Shown here: positions 1-22,565 of the stretch, one piece after another
Layout of the letters: each line of letters begins with the position of its first letter
How positions within the stretch are numbered: the first letter of the stretch is position 1
Program-made: the position numbers and the translations under genes
From: Escherichia phage HK6
Reading direction: 5' to 3' (one strand)
DNA: 64,000 nt
Sequence record: PP724615.1
The notes under the pieces: generated by a model
What the model was told of the DNA's origin: nothing
What the model saw: the letters and a program-made list of their open reading frames with translations, nothing else
Database searches by the model: none

Positions 1-47
1 CAAAATGGCTAGGATTCTGTCAAATCAAATCGTGCTGTTAATAAGTC

Positions 48-56
48 TGTGGATAA
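48..56 (+). promoter_or_regulatory. DnaA-box consensus match TGTGGATAA
   Basis: Exact 9-mer match to the DnaA box consensus; single copy. Confidence 0.3.
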
Positions 57-87
57 CTTAAATAATAGTGTTTCTCACTTCCATTCT

Positions 88-240
88 TAAATGAGAATCA
101 TTATCATTTGCATTCCACTATCTAAATGAGAATCGTTTCACTTCCTGAATAATTTTCATTCCACTTTTTAAATGAGAATCGTTTCACTTTCTAAATGCGA
201 ATTATTATCATTCTCATTCCGCTTTTTAAATGAGAATGAT
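88..240. repeat. Five degenerate direct repeats of TAAATGAGAAT(C/G)
   Basis: Copies near 88, 123, 170, 193 (variant) and 228, interleaved with CATTCCAC(T) motifs. Confidence 0.7.
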
Positions 241-255
241 TCTTATTATCATTCG

Positions 256-279
256 TATTTAGCGCAGGGCAATTGCCCT
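256..279. repeat. Perfect 24-bp palindrome AGCGCAGGGCAATTGCCCTGCGCT followed by TTTT
   Basis: Perfect inverted repeat, GC-rich arms, T-run downstream; hairpin/terminator-like or protein-binding site. Confidence 0.7.
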
Positions 280-286
280 GCGCTTT

Positions 287-511
287 TGTGCAAATCCGAC
301 ATTGCTCCACGGGTGTTACGTGCGGGCGTGTATGTGCAAATCCGACAATTTTTGGTAGTGTGCAAATCCGACCCCAAAATTTTTTATAGTGTGCAAATCC
401 GACAATGAATTTTTCCTAAAAACTCCAGCAATCACGAACTGCGTTCGAATCCTGTGGGGTATGTGCAAATCCGACATGGTTTTTCTAGGATTAAGATGTG
501 CGAATCCGACA
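287..511 (+). repeat. Cluster of six TGTGCAAATCCGAC(A/C) boxes (287, 333, 359, 390, 462, 497)
   Basis: Near-identical 15-mers in direct orientation at irregular spacing; the copy at 497 has one substitution (TGTGCGAATCCGACA). Confidence 0.85.
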
Positions 512-838
512 AGATTTTTGTGACTTCGATTAGATGGTGTGTGATTGTATGAGTTTGGGGAGAAGTTGAGAGATCGAGAGAAACTTGAGGGAACTGCGGG
601 AGGGGCGCATGTTTGGTGCGGGGCACCCGATTTGCGGGGATTTTGGGGAAGAGTTGAGAAGATTTGGGTTAATTTGAGATTAGTGGAGATAAAGTAAAAT
701 TTTATTAGCAAAATGGGGCAAAATAGCTTGACAAGTGAAAATTTCTGTGGCTCTAAAAACTCAGGCAATCATGGGCCTTCGGCCCGAAATAATGCTGCCA
801 TTTTCAGGAGATTATATGTTCCTAAAAACTTAGGCAAT

Positions 839-1037
839 TGTGCAAATCCGACCATAAATTTCTAGAAACACAATGTGCAAATCCGACAGTAATTTCTGAA
901 AAAGTGTTTTCAAAAAATGTCTTCTAGAAATAACCGCCCTCCCCATAACCGCCCTCCCCATAACCGCCCTGTATGGGAAAACCGGCCTAGGATATGTAGC
1001 GTTGGGAGAAACTGCCCTAGAACATGTGCAAATCCGA
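839..1037 (+). repeat. Three further TGTGCAAATCCGA boxes (839, 874, 1025)
   Basis: Same 15-mer family as the 287-511 cluster. Confidence 0.8.
930..971 (+). repeat. Tandem repeat ATAACCGCCCTCCCC x2 plus a partial third copy
   Basis: Head-to-tail 15-bp units at 930-944 and 945-959, partial at 960-971; followed by two GGGARAAACYGCCCTAG copies. Confidence 0.85.
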
Positions 1038-1321
1038 TTTAAAGTTTAGTGTAAACCCTAGAGTTAGTGTTCAACTATTCCTAAAAACTTAGGAGTCTAC
1101 TAGAAAGTGTTGTGCCATCCTAGGCAGAATGGCGGCAACCGGTGTATCATCTTGAATGTAAATTATGTGGTCAAAAGTTTTACCTTTAATTTAAGTATAA
1201 GATCCCCAAAGATTGGAAGAGATGCTCCACCCCTGGGATACGAATTGCGTGAGATGGTACAAAACTTCTTAAGATTTCCCTAGCCCTCCGACAAGCTACG
1301 GGGGAAATAGAAGTTTCCCAT

Positions 1322-1350
1322 CCACCATCCGTATCCGGGTGGATCTCTTT
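1322..1350 (+). terminator. Candidate hairpin plus T-rich tract
   Basis: ATCCACC...GGTGGAT inverted repeat followed by CTCTTTATTC. Confidence 0.3.
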
Positions 1351-1409
1351 ATTCTATGTTATTTCATAGAGTTATTATAACATGCAGAAATCATAACGTC
1401 AAGTAGAGT

Positions 1410-2300
1410 TTATTCATCGAACATGAGATTTCCTTTCATCCCCATCTCCGCATACTCCATGAGTTCTTTGATGGATCTCACAGGGTAATCTACTTTACTA
1501 AAGTTATCATATATCTTGCATGAACTCTCATACAACTCGTTAGGTATCTGCAATTTGTTATCCGTTAGCTTCTCATAACGTGCAGAAGAATTTGTACCGT
1601 CAAACAGAACTGCGATAACTGCGGCGATTTGTTTAGTAAGATCATCTGCTCCTAGAATTATTCTATTAATAGCACTCGTTACTTCATGCTTAGGTTTAGC
1701 AGGTGGAAGGATAGGTTCGAGATCCTTAGGTAAAGGTTCTGTTCCTAGGAATCCTTCTTTTGTGCGGAACCAATAATTATCTAGATCAGATATCGTTTTA
1801 GACTTATTCCAAATAGTGAAGCAGGGTTTATTTCCTTCACGATCTCTGTATTCACGAACTGGAAGGTAATGATCAGGGAATGAATTGAGTGCATCATGCA
1901 TCGGTGAGCCTGTCTTTTTGAAGGACAAACCATACAACTCATTATAATTCATAACTTCATCTTCGTAAACATGAAAATCTTTATATGCTGGAAGATTAAA
2001 CCATTCTTGAAGCGAATGAACTGCAAAACGTTGTGCCCAAGCATGCATCACTAGAACTCTGTATTCTTTTACTTCATCTTTTGGAGAAGTACCTTTAGCT
2101 GTTCTAGCTGAACGAATACAGAACATCTCAACAACACGTTTCTCATTTAAAGAGAGTTCAGAATAACAACGTTCATGGCAACCTTCTAGCATTTCTAGAA
2201 GTTCACGTAGTTTCTCTACATCGACCGGTGGAAAAGGTCTTTCTTCAACTGCGAATTTACCAGTTACACCTTTTGGTTTTCTATTACTATAAAATCCCAT
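1410..2300 (-). CDS. Hypothetical protein (296 aa)
   Basis: Long ORF, ATGA start/stop overlap with downstream gene; no motif recognised. Confidence 0.6.
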   Translation of the reverse strand: MGFYSNRKPKGVTGKFAVEERPFPPVDVEKLRELLEMLEGCHERCYSELSLNEKRVVEMFCIRSARTAKGTSPKDEVKEYRVLVMHAWAQRFAVHSLQEWFNLPAYKDFHVYEDEVMNYNELYGLSFKKTGSPMHDALNSFPDHYLPVREYRDREGNKPCFTIWNKSKTISDLDNYWFRTKEGFLGTEPLPKDLEPILPPAKPKHEVTSAINRIILGADDLTKQIAAVIAVLFDGTNSSARYEKLTDNKLQIPNELYESSCKIYDNFSKVDYPVRSIKELMEYAEMGMKGNLMFDE

Positions 2301-2914
2301 TAATTACCTCTCTTATCTTCATTAAGAGCAGCTCCCAACGCCTCCATAATAGCATCCTCTAAACTTCCATGTTTACCAGGATTATTAAAATGAATAGTAC
2401 AAACAGAACTCCTAGAAACTCCAGCATCCGCAGGTGCTACGCTTCGCATATCAGATTCAAAAGCTTCTTGAGTATGTTTCAACTGTACAGAAGGGCCGTA
2501 ATCTTCCGCAAACTTATATGACTGCGTACTACTTACTACACCCCCACAAGGAACATTGTGCAAATCCGACATTAATTTTTTATCGGAGTTATTCAGCATT
2601 GAGATTGTCCCTGACTGCCACGGATCTCTAATAGTCACTGGAGTACTAGGGCGGTTCACCTCGGTCTTCACGAGTTTGTACCCCGCATCGATTAATGTGT
2701 TAATTAGATTATCAGCTGGGATGCGAGCCTTGCCAAAAATCTTACGAGCATCTTCGAGCTTACCTTCAAGATCTTTACATGCTCTAAGGTCAGTGTGTGC
2801 AAATGTTAGCTTCATAGATTTGAATTGTACAGTAGCAGTTAAATCTTTAAGGCTATAATCCCACGTATTCAGTTCATGATCTGGCACTACTTGAATAGGT
2901 TGTTGTGTAAACAT
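2300..2914 (-). CDS. Hypothetical protein (204 aa)
   Basis: Long ORF in an overlapping gene string; carries an internal TGTGCAAATCCGACA box at 2557-2571. Confidence 0.6.
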   Translation of the reverse strand: MFTQQPIQVVPDHELNTWDYSLKDLTATVQFKSMKLTFAHTDLRACKDLEGKLEDARKIFGKARIPADNLINTLIDAGYKLVKTEVNRPSTPVTIRDPWQSGTISMLNNSDKKLMSDLHNVPCGGVVSSTQSYKFAEDYGPSVQLKHTQEAFESDMRSVAPADAGVSRSSVCTIHFNNPGKHGSLEDAIMEALGAALNEDKRGN

Positions 2915-3099
2915 TATTTATTCTCCAGTTTGTCTAACAGTTTATGGGCTGCTAGATTATATTGTTTAAGTTCACGATTAAGGATTTGGTTCTCACACTT
3001 TAGCTCTAGATTCTTATTATTAAGAATATTGCAGATTAGTAGAAGTGCTAGTATTAGTAACAGAGAACCTACGAGCATTAAAAGAAAAAGAGTTTCCAT
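2914..3099 (-). CDS. Small membrane protein (61 aa)
   Basis: Hydrophobic N-terminal segment; start/stop overlaps with neighbours. Confidence 0.45.
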   Translation of the reverse strand: METLFLLMLVGSLLLILALLLICNILNNKNLELKCENQILNRELKQYNLAAHKLLDKLENK

Positions 3100-3539
3100 T
3101 ATTTTATCTCCATTCTTAACTTTGAAAACTTATTATACCAAACTATATGATTATCGTCAATTACAAATTTATGATAACATGCCGGTACGGTATAAGTTCC
3201 ATAATCCGTGACACGCTGCACAACCTTGTGTGCACACAGTCGACAACCATGCCCTTCTAAATGAGATCTAGCAGTTTGCCAGTAATAACCATCATGGTCT
3301 GGACAGTAGATCTCTACTTGCTGTTGCATTGTTTTATAATTTACACGCTCATACCCAAAGAAAACTCCATGAACTGCAACAGCTTTCTTGATAAATATAA
3401 GGTTTAGTGCTTCTTGTTGAAAGTCGGGATGTAGCTGCTTAATCTTAGTTCTATTAATAGATCCATCCGATTTGATAAACCTATTTATTGGGAAGTTGTT
3501 AGCTTCCTCGATCAGTAATTCATTTACTTTTTCTCTCAT
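3099..3539 (-). CDS. Hypothetical Cys/His-containing protein
   Basis: ORF extends to 3641 in the track; start placed at the internal Met just after the upstream stop (uncertain). Confidence 0.5.
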   Translation of the reverse strand: MREKVNELLIEEANNFPINRFIKSDGSINRTKIKQLHPDFQQEALNLIFIKKAVAVHGVFFGYERVNYKTMQQQVEIYCPDHDGYYWQTARSHLEGHGCRLCAHKVVQRVTDYGTYTVPACYHKFVIDDNHIVWYNKFSKLRMEIK

Positions 3540-3540
3540 A

Positions 3541-3765
3541 TTAGATATTCTCACAGCTAAGGTAGAAACATTCGTAAGCATCACCAGTAAACTCTTTATC
3601 TTGTAGTATACACTTAGCCTGGTCTTCTGGTACTCCAGCATCTAATAATTGTTGTTTACTTGGCTTTTCAGCGAATACCTTTACAAAATATTCACCATCC
3701 TGATTATACTCATTTATATCTCTAGTAAGGACGTATACTTGCATCTGAAGTTCCTTGAAACACAA
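3541..3765 (-). CDS. Hypothetical protein (74 aa)
   Basis: ORF track; start uncertain. Confidence 0.4.
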   Translation of the reverse strand: MCFKELQMQVYVLTRDINEYNQDGEYFVKVFAEKPSKQQLLDAGVPEDQAKCILQDKEFTGDAYECFYLSCENI

Positions 3766-3798
3766 AAGGCCAGAACAATTAAGTCCTGGCCCCTAAAA

Positions 3799-4170
3799 TT
3801 AATGAAGTTGTTTACCACTTCTTAAAATAGTGGCCGTTTCCATAAGATTTAACGTTGTATCACGCTTTTTGATTTGTTTGTCGAGTTCATCGGTACGTTT
3901 GCCAATGTAAGCGTTAATAGCCATATTCATAGCTGAGGCGAGATCTTCTTTGGTTATCTCTTCATCATCTAAAGCTAATTTAGCCAAAGAATCGAAAGTA
4001 CTAGAAAGTCCTATAAGATCAGAAGCTTCCCCTGCCAAAATAGGATTTATATTATCTATTGTTACTTCTAGCATAGAGTTAACAATATCTTCTCCGTCTA
4101 CTAGACCAGATTCAATATTACTCTCCCATTCCTTCATCTGCTCCAGCAATGGATTTTTCTTTTCTGTCAT
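3799..4170 (-). CDS. Hypothetical acidic protein
   Basis: ORF extends to 4236; start moved to internal Met with AGGAAA-like RBS to reduce overlap with upstream gene (uncertain). Confidence 0.45.
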   Translation of the reverse strand: MTEKKNPLLEQMKEWESNIESGLVDGEDIVNSMLEVTIDNINPILAGEASDLIGLSSTFDSLAKLALDDEEITKEDLASAMNMAINAYIGKRTDELDKQIKKRDTTLNLMETATILRSGKQLH

Positions 4171-8825: not shown

Positions 8826-9249
8826 AGTTATTAATGGCCTCTAAGAAGTTTTTCATAGTTTTTACGGTTGCGGTGCTTAGATCAAGATTTACACCCAAAC
8901 ACTCGGTTAATGCTTCCTGATAAGGAGCCTTCAATCTGCCTTCTGGGACTTCTACCTTTTTATACTCTTTATTTTTGACCTTTTTAATCATAGTCTCTAG
9001 TACAAGAAGTGGTAATTTAGCACCCTCAATATCAGTACCCAAAAGTTCAGTTAAAATTTTATTAAGATCAAGACGAGTTAACTTTTTGCCCTTAGACATA
9101 GATGCACCTACCTTTGTATCAATAGATTTTTCCGCTTTCTTTTCGAGCTTTTTGTACTCAGGAGAGTCATGATCACGGAGTGCAATGTTTAGCTCGTAAT
9201 GTGGTATACGAAAATGTTCCGCCATTTGAGTATAGAAACGATCAGACAT
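8818..9249 (-). CDS. Hypothetical protein (143 aa)
   Basis: ORF track. Confidence 0.55.
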   Translation of the reverse strand: MSDRFYTQMAEHFRIPHYELNIALRDHDSPEYKKLEKKAEKSIDTKVGASMSKGKKLTRLDLNKILTELLGTDIEGAKLPLLVLETMIKKVKNKEYKKVEVPEGRLKAPYQEALTECLGVNLDLSTATVKTMKNFLEAINNYE

Positions 9250-9324
9250 AATATATACCTCTCTTAACTAATTTATGTATATATTATATAATAACTAGGG
9301 CTAAAAGTCAACTACTTTTTTATC

Positions 9325-9741
9325 TTAATCTACTGCATGTATAAATCTTTTCCTAACTAGATACATAGTTATTGGGTAAATTGAGTACATAAGTATCGGG
9401 GAGAAAAGGGTGAAATACGCTGTAACTCCCCCAGCTAACATCAAAGGTATTAATGCTAGAGTAAGGGCCATAAGAATCATGCCGAATGAAACAGCCAAAG
9501 CTATGGATATAGGATTCTCTAGTTCCATCCATAACCAACAATATTTCGTATCTCTATGGCAATTGCATTTACAAACGCCGAATGAACCCATAATTATATA
9601 CTCTAGTCCGTGAATAACCTTTATTAATAAGCTATTTCGGGTAGTTAATGCAAGGATAGTAAAGACTATCATTAAAACGAATACTACTAGACTTATTTTC
9701 CAGATACCTAGCAGCATCATAGTGAATAGTTCTGCAAACAT
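9325..9741 (-). CDS. Integral membrane protein (138 aa)
   Basis: Multiple hydrophobic segments. Confidence 0.55.
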   Translation of the reverse strand: MFAELFTMMLLGIWKISLVVFVLMIVFTILALTTRNSLLIKVIHGLEYIIMGSFGVCKCNCHRDTKYCWLWMELENPISIALAVSFGMILMALTLALIPLMLAGGVTAYFTLFSPILMYSIYPITMYLVRKRFIHAVD

Positions 9742-9818
9742 GGCTTTCTCCTATCTTCAAAAATTATTAAAGCCCCCTTTGCCTAAAAAGGCGGGAATAT
9801 TCCCGCCTAAGTTATTAA

Positions 9819-10232
9819 TTAAACTAGTTCGACATGACCGCCATCATAGGTACCACGTTTTATTTCATCGTGATAATCTCCCGAAGCATTCCAATCAGCA
9901 CCAAAACGAAGTTTAATGCCTAGTTCTTTACCAGCTTGTTCAAAAGCCTTTTTAACTGCCCAAAATGCTTCTAAATCATTCCAATCAATTTTGCCATTAA
10001 TGTATGGAGCAAAATCAAGGGCATCCCCAGTAATATGCTTGCTTTTACTAGGATCTTTTAAAAATGAAGTACCATTAGCAATATTCTGGGCACTTTGTGC
10101 TACTGTACGAATACCCTGTACGATCGTGAAATCATATGGAGATAATTCTAAAGCTCTACGAGCTACTTTTTGTAGCTCTGGCTTAACGGTAGCTAATTGT
10201 TTTTCGCTATTTTTACCAAATTTAAAACTCAT
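9819..10232 (-). CDS. lys: Endolysin, L-alanyl-D-glutamate peptidase type (137 aa)
   Basis: 137-aa protein matching my recollection of the T5 endolysin sequence; directly downstream of the holin gene. Confidence 0.85.
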   Translation of the reverse strand: MSFKFGKNSEKQLATVKPELQKVARRALELSPYDFTIVQGIRTVAQSAQNIANGTSFLKDPSKSKHITGDALDFAPYINGKIDWNDLEAFWAVKKAFEQAGKELGIKLRFGADWNASGDYHDEIKRGTYDGGHVELV

Positions 10233-10885
10233 ATTGATCTACCTAAAGATCTCTGTTGTGGAGAACAGAGCTTTGTTAAATACTCGTTAAATTTCTCAGA
10301 ATCGGCTGCATCTACAGGATTATCTTTCCAAGCAATACCAATATATCCAGCATAGATATTGTTTAGATTGAAATACGGACAAGTGTATATGTAATTAAAA
10401 GTAACGTTCTTAAACGCAGGTATATTTAACCCCATATATTTATTTACTTTTACACTTAAATCCGATGCGTAGTTAAAGCCGTCTAAGTGACGTCTATATA
10501 GCTCAGACGTCTTATTTACCGCTTTATCGGCCAAGTCAGCCCTATCTAATTGCGCATTGCTTTCCCATGCAATAATGTTAGAATAATCATTAATGGCATC
10601 GGGTTTATACTTGACTACAAAAACAGCATCCGCACCCGTTTGGGAAAAAAGCACCATGCTCTTTTCTCTAGCTACGTTAGGAAAATTACTTATCCTTTGA
10701 GTTTGAACATCCTGTAGAACCGCAGACGTGGAGAAAGTCTTTAAGAATGACATCACCTCACTAGTATTACTAACAAATAAGAAAATAATGACAGCAACTA
10801 AGATAGTTAGCAGACGTTTAAGAAGCGATGCTGGATCTTTCGCTTCTTGGAGCAGTACCGTTAATAATTGTAAGAACTTTTCCAA
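10229..10885 (-). CDS. Holin-like membrane protein (218 aa)
   Basis: N-terminal transmembrane segment; 4-bp overlap with the endolysin start. Confidence 0.65.
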   Translation of the reverse strand: MEKFLQLLTVLLQEAKDPASLLKRLLTILVAVIIFLFVSNTSEVMSFLKTFSTSAVLQDVQTQRISNFPNVAREKSMVLFSQTGADAVFVVKYKPDAINDYSNIIAWESNAQLDRADLADKAVNKTSELYRRHLDGFNYASDLSVKVNKYMGLNIPAFKNVTFNYIYTCPYFNLNNIYAGYIGIAWKDNPVDAADSEKFNEYLTKLCSPQQRSLGRSI

Positions 10886-22217: not shown

Positions 22218-22565
22218 TTAATTTAACAGTAAAGTACGATCTACTTCACCATTAATTGTTCGGCATTCTTCTGGGATCTCTGGTGTAGCCTTATATTCCC
22301 ACCATTCAGAACCGTCGTATTCACCACGTTCTAACCAAGTTCCATCAGTAAACCACACGTTACCATAAAGCAATTGCCCACCATAACCAGAATCATATTT
22401 AAAGTCTAGATTATTTAGAAAATCTTCAATATCTTTTTCTGTATAACCTACGGGCAATACCCAAACTTCTTTGTCTCCATAATAACCGAATTCTATCTTA
22501 ATACACTTAACTTCAGAATTAGTATTCTTTAGGGCAAGTAACAACTCTTCTTTAGCATTAATCAT
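22218..22565 (-). CDS. Hypothetical protein (115 aa)
   Basis: ORF track. Confidence 0.5.
   Translation of the reverse strand: MINAKEELLLALKNTNSEVKCIKIEFGYYGDKEVWVLPVGYTEKDIEDFLNNLDFKYDSGYGGQLLYGNVWFTDGTWLERGEYDGSEWWEYKATPEIPEECRTINGEVDRTLLLN

What the first reader, a model, noticed from the sequence alone, without database searches (positions are those of the whole stretch)
2557..2571. Exact TGTGCAAATCCGACA box inside a coding region
One full 15-mer copy of the repeat from the non-coding array lies inside the 204-aa ORF at 2300-2914, about 1.5 kb from the main cluster. A 15-mer match by chance is improbable in 64 kb. It may be an outlying functional site (binding, pausing or nicking).
Basis: seen in the sequence. 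Interest (0 to 1): 0.5.

Follow-up and report, generated by a model that had tools for sequence, protein, structure and literature searches.

The report
Conserved repeat box inside phage gene
A 15-base box, already known as a repeat at the end of the terminal repeat of T5-like phages, also sits inside a neighbouring gene, where its silent codon positions have stayed frozen across relatives, so it is probably a real extra protein-binding site of unknown function rather than a coincidence.

Summary
TGTGCAAATCCGACA occurs exactly at 2557-2571 (+), inside the minus-strand 204-aa ORF 2300-2914. The window comes from a T5-like phage (Tequintavirus). The "non-coding array" is the published DRD direct-repeat family of the T5 injection-stop / terminal-repeat-end region, whose function is unknown. 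The ORF is the T5.019 family.

In 54 distinct homologues the site is kept: 3 exact, 41 with one mismatch, 10 with two or three. Fifty of 54 keep all nine positions that never vary in 214 array units. The codons TCG-GAT-[T/A]TG-CAC-AAT-GTT show no synonymous change where about 20 were expected (gene-wide permutation P=0.0016), although TCG, TTG and CAC are non-preferred codons. Amino-acid changes do break the box in about 10% of lineages, so it is not essential.

T5 has one further outlier, a tandem box pair inside gene D13. All copies are on the + strand. The 6+3 arrangement of boxes around the terminal-repeat boundary is shared by T5 and Pectobacterium phage My1.

Nick sites have a different consensus, and no promoter, terminator, RNA family or antisense ORF fits.

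Most likely this is an auxiliary binding site of the DRD family. The binding protein and its role (end processing or injection stop) are only inferred.

The parts
2557..2571 (+). Outlying intragenic copy of the DRD box, TGTGCAAATCCGACA (the finding)
   Evidence: Exact match. It is kept at the same codon positions in 54 distinct homologues with 0-3 mismatches.
2552..2584 (-). 33-nt block (codons D111-V121 of the 204-aa gene) with suppressed synonymous variation. It contains the box plus 5 nt on one side and the T-tract side on the other.
   Evidence: Columns 113-123 of the codon alignment show 0-2 synonymous changes, while the flanking codons show 3-8 each. It holds the longest zero-synonymous run in the gene, with permutation P=0.0016.
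2300..2914 (-). 204-aa ORF, homologue of T5.019 (phrog_5271, function unknown), restricted to Tequintavirus and Epseptimavirus
287..511 (+). Left cluster of the DRD array: six boxes at 287, 333, 359, 390, 462 and 497, inside the terminal repeat
   Evidence: It is homologous to T5 9752-9975.
839..1039 (+). Right cluster of the DRD array: three boxes at 839, 874 and 1025, just outside the terminal repeat
   Evidence: It is homologous to T5 10305-10491.
753..754 (.). Inferred right boundary of the terminal repeat (the physical right end of the genome), lying between the two box clusters
   Evidence: Window 1-753 aligns with T5 120994-121750, the end of the right terminal repeat. The annotated T5 left-repeat end at 10219 has the same sequence context, ctgtggctc|taaaaactc.
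283..284 (-). Position homologous to the T5 7.9% major nick (CCCTGCGC|TTTT), 3 nt from the first box. It is a separate element, not part of the box.
   Evidence: T5 annotation and sequence context.
2409..2428 (+). Possible second echo of an array-region motif (TTCCTAAAAACTYAGGCAAT family) inside the same gene
   Evidence: 80% match over 20 nt. The core TCCTAGAAACTCC is kept in most homologues and the GGA GTT TCT codons show no synonymous change, but T5 itself carries a different allele.

Best explanation
The 15-mer at 2557-2571 is a real, evolutionarily maintained outlying member of the DRD box family of T5-like phages (core GTGCAAATCCGA). This family is most likely the recognition site of a sequence-specific DNA-binding protein. 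Its main cluster, six boxes inside and three outside, brackets the right boundary of the terminal repeat. That boundary is where the genome end is cut and, during infection, near where first-step DNA transfer stops. The intragenic copy is written into the T5.019-family gene by an unusual codon choice (TCG GAT TTG CAC). Selection acts there on the protein motif S-x-x-H-N-V-P-C-G-G and also on the DNA site.

Shown: the site, its orientation, its conservation and the synonymous-site freeze. Inferred: that a protein binds it, and that binding serves terminal-repeat end recognition (terminase or packaging) or the injection stop, with the outlier acting as a dispensable auxiliary site.
For: (1) Chance is excluded: 11 matches against 0.12 expected. 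In the whole T5 genome, matches with up to 2 mismatches occur only in the array, its right-repeat copy, T5.019 and a tandem pair in D13, all on the + strand. Two independent outliers with at most 1 mismatch have a Poisson probability of about 5e-5 (my calculation).
(2) In 54 distinct homologues with down to 57% amino-acid identity, the codons for S, D, H, N and V around the box show 0 synonymous changes where about 20 were expected. This is the longest zero run in the gene, with P=0.0016.
(3) The frozen codons are non-preferred: TCG is 3.5% of Ser codons, TTG 12% of Leu and CAC 28% of His.
(4) 50 of 54 copies keep all nine positions that never vary in 214 distinct array units. Variation falls on positions 7, 14 and 15, which also vary in the arrays.
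(5) The copy resembles a full unit over 28 nt, including the T-tract.
(6) The box and the 6+3 arrangement around the terminal-repeat end are shared by T5 (end 10219) and Pectobacterium phage My1 (end 12854). A degenerate version occupies the homologous region of Vibrio phage VPT02.
(7) The D13 pair is kept in 28 of 28 Markadamsvirinae loci. Vibrio phages carry GCGCAAATCCGACA-like sequences at the same place in D13 in another reading frame.
Against: Only 3 of 54 homologues are exact. The central T/A change (Leu/Met) toggles about 6 times on the tree. Roughly 10% of protein clusters have S-E/G/K-x-H-N, and the glutamate variant alters array-invariant position 8 (GAT to GAA). The site can therefore be lost.

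The frozen block extends 5 nt beyond the box, where the arrays show no conservation, so some other overlapping constraint could be responsible. My1 has the array but no outlier within 4.7 kb to its right and no D13 boxes. No binding protein is known, and nothing here tests binding. The D13 synonymous test has no power, because 44% of its codons are already invariant.
Confidence: 0.55

Rival explanations
1. Historical accident kept by protein selection only. An array unit was once copied into the gene, or matched it by luck. It persists because it encodes the most conserved peptide of the C-terminal half (S-D-[L/M]-H-N-V-P-C-G-G). The DNA site itself does nothing.
For: S116, H119, N120, C123, G124 and G125 are invariant at the protein level, while residues 2-3 of the motif vary (D/E/G/K and L/M/I/T/S). 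This is the pattern expected from protein constraint. The exact match is rare, at 3 of 54. My1 and Vibrio relatives manage without this outlier.
Against: Protein selection does not explain zero synonymous change in 6 consecutive codons (P=0.0016). It also does not explain the fixation of the rarest Ser codon and of minor His and Leu codons. Neighbouring invariant residues P, C, G and G show 4-8 synonymous changes each. A second intragenic outlier in the same orientation exists in D13.
Confidence: 0.28
2. The frozen block reflects a different overlapping element, such as an mRNA structure, a translational signal or an internal regulatory site of the early operon. Its overlap with the box is then incidental.
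For: The conserved block (2552-2584) is wider than the box, and a weak hairpin CACAA-N6-TTGTG overlaps its edge (sequence). A second zero-synonymous patch lies at 2409-2428.
Against: There is no promoter- or terminator-like site at the box, no Rfam match, and no conserved antisense ORF, since stops occur after 18-39 codons in many homologues. This reading does not explain why the block is centred on a 14-15/15 match to the array consensus in the array's orientation.
Confidence: 0.1
3. The box is a nicking or ejection-pause site, like the T5 single-strand interruptions.
For: In T5 the first array box starts 3 nt from the annotated 7.9% major nick, and the D13 pair lies 362 nt from the 64.5% nick. 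In-vitro ejection of T5 pauses near nick positions (review PMC2771126).
Against: The nicks at 22336 and 39746 share CCCTGCGC|TCTC and have no box nearby. The consensus in the record is Pu-pGCGC. The intragenic box has no GCGC next to it.
Confidence: 0.05

Closest known systems
DRD direct repeats of T5 'Repeat Region 3' (injection-stop-signal region at the right end of the left terminal repeat; Davison, bioRxiv 10.1101/866236, which credits earlier descriptions to its references, including the T5 genome paper of Wang et al.)
   Same: Same 15-nt consensus, same strand and same T-tract after the box. The nine copies I find in T5 (9752-10477) match the 'nine DRD repeats' of the paper.
   Different: The published family is confined to the untranslated region. 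This copy lies 1.5-1.7 kb away inside a coding sequence and is not among the nine. The paper assigns no function to DRD.
Terminase recognition repeats that flank the cut site (lambda cosB R sites; SPP1 pacL/pacR boxes). Recalled from general knowledge, not tested.
   Same: Several short boxes in one orientation lie on both sides of the point where the genome end is made. The terminal-repeat end lies between a 6-box and a 3-box cluster in both T5 and My1.
   Different: There is no evidence that T5 terminase binds them. Those systems have no known intragenic outliers kilobases away.
Arrays of short repeats next to the terminal repetition of T7 (SRL/SRR). Recalled from general knowledge.
   Same: Arrays of short direct repeats abut a direct terminal repeat in a phage with defined ends.
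   Different: Different sequence, unit length and phage family. The function of the T7 arrays is also unsettled.
Binding sites embedded in coding sequence (lambda ori iterons inside gene O; chromosomal parS sites inside genes). Recalled from general knowledge.
   Same: A protein-binding DNA motif coexists with a reading frame, which constrains synonymous positions.
   Different: There is no evidence that this box is an origin or a partition site. Here there is one copy in T5.019 and two in D13, not an iteron array.
DnaA box (TTWTNCACA)
   Same: The reverse complement of the box contains ATTTGCACA, 8/9 of the relaxed consensus. True DnaA boxes lie nearby (window 48-56, and paper).
   Different: The base that completes the CACA end of the DnaA box (box position 1) is T in T5, A in My1 and G in Vibrio phages and in D13. 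The strongly conserved AATCCGA part is irrelevant to DnaA.

Membership tests
T5 DRD direct-repeat family | Match to the consensus TGTGC[A/G]AATCCGAC[A/C] | tested here: met
   15/15 in the window. 50 of 54 homologues keep all nine positions that never vary in the arrays.
T5 DRD direct-repeat family | Same orientation as the array copies (+ strand of the conventional map) | tested here: met
   All copies in the window, in T5 and in 40+ loci share one orientation.
T5 DRD direct-repeat family | T-rich tract 5-8 nt after the box | tested here: met
   The array logo has T at positions +20 to +22. The intragenic copy reads ACAttaatttttt.
T5 DRD direct-repeat family | Location in the untranslated region at the terminal-repeat end | tested here: not met
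   It lies inside the T5.019-family ORF, 1.5 kb from the array.
T5 major nick site | Consensus Pu-pGCGC (CCCTGCGC|T) at the interruption | tested here: not met
   There is no GCGC at or next to 2557-2571. The nick sites at T5 22336 and 39746 lack the box.
DnaA box | TTWTNCACA 9-mer conserved as such | tested here: not met
   8/9 only. The position needed for the CACA end varies between subfamilies (T/A/G), while non-DnaA positions are invariant.
Sigma-70 promoter or intrinsic terminator | -35/-10 hexamers, or a GC hairpin followed by a T run, at the site | tested here: not met
   None of the 23 promoter-like or 2 terminator-like hits overlaps 2540-2590.
Known RNA family (Rfam 15) | Covariance-model match | tested here: not met
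   No match near the site at E<=1.
Terminase recognition site (cos/pac type) | Specific binding by the small terminase subunit and a requirement for end formation | not testable with these tools
   Only positional evidence is available: the boxes flank the terminal-repeat boundary in T5 and My1.
Injection stop signal (iss) | Cis-acting sequence that halts DNA transfer at about 7.9% | not testable with these tools
   The T5 record annotates iss as 9140-10149, which covers the left box cluster. The intragenic copy lies outside it.

The most novel reading that the evidence does not exclude
The DRD box is the recognition element of a family-wide, orientation-dependent DNA-protein system of Demerecviridae. 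The system defines the right terminal-repeat boundary (genome-end formation and/or the two-step injection stop). Its few dispersed copies inside T5.019 and D13 are functional auxiliary sites held in place by dual coding and DNA constraint. If so, a small set of synonymous edits would give a direct genetic handle on the unresolved T5 injection-stop and end-formation mechanism.
Probability: 0.3. Interest if true: 0.65.

Novelty: new member of a known kind. Interest (0 to 1): 0.45.

Why it matters
How T5 stops DNA transfer at 8% and how it makes its 10-kb terminal repeats are old open questions. The repeat-rich region at the repeat end has been described, but its repeats have no assigned function.

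This work shows three things:
- One repeat family has a core conserved across three subfamilies (hosts Escherichia/Salmonella, Pectobacterium, Vibrio).
- Its boxes bracket the repeat boundary in the same 6+3 layout in T5 and My1.
- It has a few outliers in the same orientation whose silent codon positions are frozen.

Together these argue that the box is a protein-binding site. They also offer clean targets: single intragenic copies can be destroyed by synonymous mutation without touching the complex array. If the outliers prove inert, the finding is a curiosity of sequence history.

Tried and rejected
- **Nick-site reading.** Rejected after reading the T5 annotation and comparing the nick contexts.
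- **Promoter or terminator.** No hit at the site.
- **Rfam.** Nothing relevant.
- **Antisense ORF starting at the box** (TTG TGC AAA...). It is open for 100 codons in the window but interrupted after 18-39 codons in many homologues, so it is not a gene.
- **Protein fold as an explanation of the peptide motif.** The AlphaFold2 model has mean pLDDT 50.6, and the region 90-204, including the motif, is below 50. I therefore ran no fold search.
- **Protein family.** No Pfam family; PHROG family of unknown function. HMMER over 1.84 billion representatives found only T5-like relatives, plus faint N-terminal similarity to repeats in two giant proteins.
- **Co-variation test** (does the intragenic copy follow the array consensus when it changes?). 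Not possible, because the array consensus is identical in every phage that has the gene.
- **Distant relatives.** Two scans added nothing about boxes: the GCGCAAATCCGACA scan returned only single, apparently random hits, and the A1-anchored loci showed only an unrelated coding tandem repeat.
- **Synonymous test on the D13 pair.** No power, because 44% of the codons are already invariant.
- **Cumulative GC skew of T5.** It follows transcription direction and says nothing about the box positions.
- **Second near-box in the Epseptimavirus homologues** (TGTGCAAAAACGACA, codons 36-41). Its synonymous positions vary, so it is probably incidental.
- **Match at window 36352** (2 mismatches). Absent from T5, so treated as chance.

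Full report
**What the window is.** Megablast of window 1-4000 finds 450 phage records, all T5-like (Salmonella and Escherichia phages; best hits phC17, ABTNLsp9, AKFV33, Spc35). Aligned to T5, the window runs from T5 position 9463 to 75268. It therefore starts inside the left terminal repeat. Window 1-753 also aligns with the last 757 bases of the T5 right terminal repeat, so the repeat boundary falls at window 753|754.

**The observation.** TGTGCAAATCCGACA is present exactly at 2557-2571 on the + strand. With up to two mismatches there are 11 matches in the window against 0.12 expected. Nine form the array: six at 287-511 and three at 839-1039. All are on the + strand. The site lies in the minus-strand ORF 2300-2914 (204 aa) and encodes M-S-D-L-H-N. 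The resemblance to an array unit extends to 28 nt (86% identity to unit 837-864) and includes the T-tract that follows most array boxes.

**What the array is.** It is already described. Davison's analysis of the T5 first-step-transfer region lists 'nine copies of direct repeat DRD' in Repeat Region 3, the untranslated region that holds the injection stop signal and overruns the repeat end by 270 bp. The paper assigns them no function. In T5 I find exactly nine copies (9752-10477). The annotated repeat end (10219) lies between a six-box cluster and a three-box cluster.

The same core and the same 6+3 layout around the annotated repeat end (12854) occur in Pectobacterium phage My1, which belongs to another subfamily. 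Vibrio phage VPT02, of a third subfamily, has degenerate GGTGCAAATYC boxes in the homologous non-coding region, next to DnaA boxes and a LexA-like palindrome. A logo from 214 distinct array units shows positions 1-5, 8 and 11-13 essentially invariant. Positions 6, 7, 9, 10, 14 and 15 are tolerant. Conservation this deep in a short asymmetric motif, with freely varying flanks, is the signature of a protein-binding site. That is an inference.

**The gene.** The ORF is the homologue of T5.019. It matches phrog_5271 (function unknown) and no Pfam family. tblastn finds it in 439 phage records, mostly of Salmonella and Escherichia phages; every one I examined belongs to Tequintavirus or Epseptimavirus. 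An exhaustive HMMER search finds no other relatives, apart from faint N-terminal similarity to repeats in two giant proteins. The AlphaFold2 model is unreliable over the C-terminal half, with mean pLDDT 50.6. The role of the S-D-[L/M]-H-N-V-P-C-G-G motif therefore stays unknown.

**Is the intragenic box conserved, and at what level?** I assembled 54 distinct gene sequences, down to 57% amino-acid identity, from IMG/VR, metagenomes and GenBank phages.
- The box variants are TGTGCATATCCGACA (31), TGTGCAAATCCGACG (10), TGTGCAAATCCGATG (6), TGTGCATTTCCGACG (4) and the exact form (3).
- 50 of 54 keep all nine array-invariant positions.
- Parsimony counts on the gene tree give no synonymous change at TCG, GAT, CAC, AAT and GTT, where class means predict about 20.
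- The run of six zero-change degenerate codons is the longest in the gene. Shuffling within degeneracy classes reaches it in 0.16% of trials.
- The neighbouring invariant residues P, C, G and G each show 4-8 synonymous changes.
- The frozen codons are not the preferred ones: TCG is 3.5% of Ser codons, TTG 12% of Leu and CAC 28% of His in the long ORFs of this window.
- All third-codon positions within the box fall on array-invariant or near-invariant positions (2, 5, 8, 11 and 14).

**Evidence on the other side.**
- The central T/A change (Leu/Met, box position 7) toggles about six times on the tree.
- Among 120 protein clusters, about 10% have S-E/G/K-x-H-N or similar; the glutamate variant (GAT to GAA) changes array-invariant position 8.
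- The frozen block (window 2552-2584) is wider than the box.
- My1 has the array but no outlier.

The site is therefore not essential, and another overlapping constraint is not excluded.

**Genome-wide count.** In the complete T5 genome, matches with up to two mismatches occur only in four places: the array, its copy in the right repeat, T5.019 (12153), and a head-to-tail pair at 78935-78964. The pair reads TGTGCAAATCCTACA GGTGCAAATCCGACA. It lies inside D13, the SbcC-like nuclease subunit, where it encodes VQILQ-VQIRQ. All copies are on the + strand although T5.019 and D13 are transcribed in opposite directions. The orientation therefore follows the genome, not transcription.

The D13 pair is present in all 28 Tequintavirus and Epseptimavirus loci. 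Its second copy keeps every array-invariant position in all 28 loci; the first copy departs from the consensus at invariant position 12 (T for G) and varies more, including a G-to-A change at invariant position 4 in one locus. Vibrio phages carry GCGCAAATCCGACA-like sequences at the same place in D13 in a different reading frame. My1 and two other distant phages carry none. The D13 site lies about 3.7 kb beyond the right end of this window.

**Readings that fail.**
- **Nicks.** The T5 record places the major nicks at CCCTGCGC|T. One abuts the first array box, but those at 22336 and 39746 have no box, and the intragenic box has no GCGC.
- **Transcription signals and RNA.** No promoter- or terminator-like site, Rfam family or conserved antisense ORF overlaps the site.
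- **DnaA.** The box contains an 8/9 DnaA-box match, but the base needed for it varies between subfamilies, while the non-DnaA part is the conserved part.

**Most likely mechanism.** The box is a binding site for a protein conserved in Demerecviridae, or for a host protein common to enterobacteria and vibrios. The main cluster marks the right boundary of the terminal repeat. This suggests a role in end recognition by terminase or in the injection stop. The T5 record annotates the stop signal as 9140-10149, which covers the left cluster. The T5.019 copy, and the D13 pair elsewhere in the genome, would be auxiliary sites kept by weak selection on top of the coding constraint. Binding, the identity of the protein and the process served are all inferred. 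None could be tested here.

**Verdict.**
- The array is already known.
- The intragenic copy is an additional member of that family, not listed among the nine published copies as far as I could check.
- Its silent positions are conserved beyond what the protein requires.

Interest is moderate. It gives a tractable handle on an old problem, but the function is unproven and the site is dispensable in some lineages.

Noticed in passing
outside the window: T5 NC_005859 78935-78964 (loci L181, L182-L209): A head-to-tail pair of boxes (TGTGCAAATCCTACA GGTGCAAATCCGACA) lies inside gene D13 and encodes VQILQ-VQIRQ. It is on the + strand and present in all 28 Tequintavirus/Epseptimavirus loci. Vibrio phages have GCGCAAATCCGACA-like sequences at the same place in another reading frame. 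It lies 362 nt from the annotated 64.5% nick.
   Followed up: partly
window 2409-2428: A second array-region motif (TTCCTAAAAACTYAGGCAAT family) has an 80% copy inside the same 204-aa gene, in the same orientation. The codons GGA GTT TCT there show no synonymous change, but T5 itself carries a different allele.
   Followed up: partly
window 2136-2154: An inverted 17/19 copy of the TAAATGAGAAT-type repeat of window 90-250 lies inside the 296-aa ORF. It is present in only a few relatives.
   Followed up: partly
window 255-286: The palindrome AGCGCAGGGCAATTGCCCTGCGC followed by TTTT is homologous to the T5 site annotated as the 7.9% major nick (CCCTGCGC|T). It ends 3 nt before the first box.
   Followed up: partly
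window 540-720: A purine-rich, almost C-free tract of about 180 nt lies just left of the inferred terminal-repeat end. It is conserved in T5, My1 and the Vibrio phage.
   Followed up: no
window 400-1150: CTAG is about 2.4 times more frequent here (10.7 per kb) than in the window as a whole (4.4 per kb), often within TTCTAGAAA-like motifs.
   Followed up: no
window 930-971: An exact 15-nt tandem ATAACCGCCCTCCCC x2 is followed by a partial third copy, between the right-cluster boxes.
   Followed up: no
window 48-56: A consensus DnaA box (TGTGGATAA) lies here. It is one of the paired boxes described for the injection-stop region.
   Followed up: no
outside the window: T5 about 9400-9425 (L163) and Vibrio phage VPT02 (L388, about 3250-3400): A perfect LexA-type palindrome (TACTGTATAAATATACAGTA) lies next to the DnaA boxes and is conserved between T5 and a Vibrio phage.
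   Followed up: no
L031 (Escherichia phage HASG4) 4995-5600: The T5.019 homologue carries an in-frame stop and is annotated as two CDSs, yet the box (TGTGCAAATCCGACG) is intact.
   Followed up: no
L027-L030, L018, L019 (Epseptimavirus homologues), codons 36-41: A second near-box, TGTGCAAAAACGACA (13/15), lies in the same gene and encodes L-S-F-L-H. Its synonymous positions vary, so it is probably incidental.
   Followed up: partly
window 2300-2914, residues 16-90 of the protein: The N-terminal domain shows faint similarity (E 5.5e-10 and 1e-7) to a unit repeated 8-11 times in two giant proteins of 2003 and 2321 aa.
   Followed up: no
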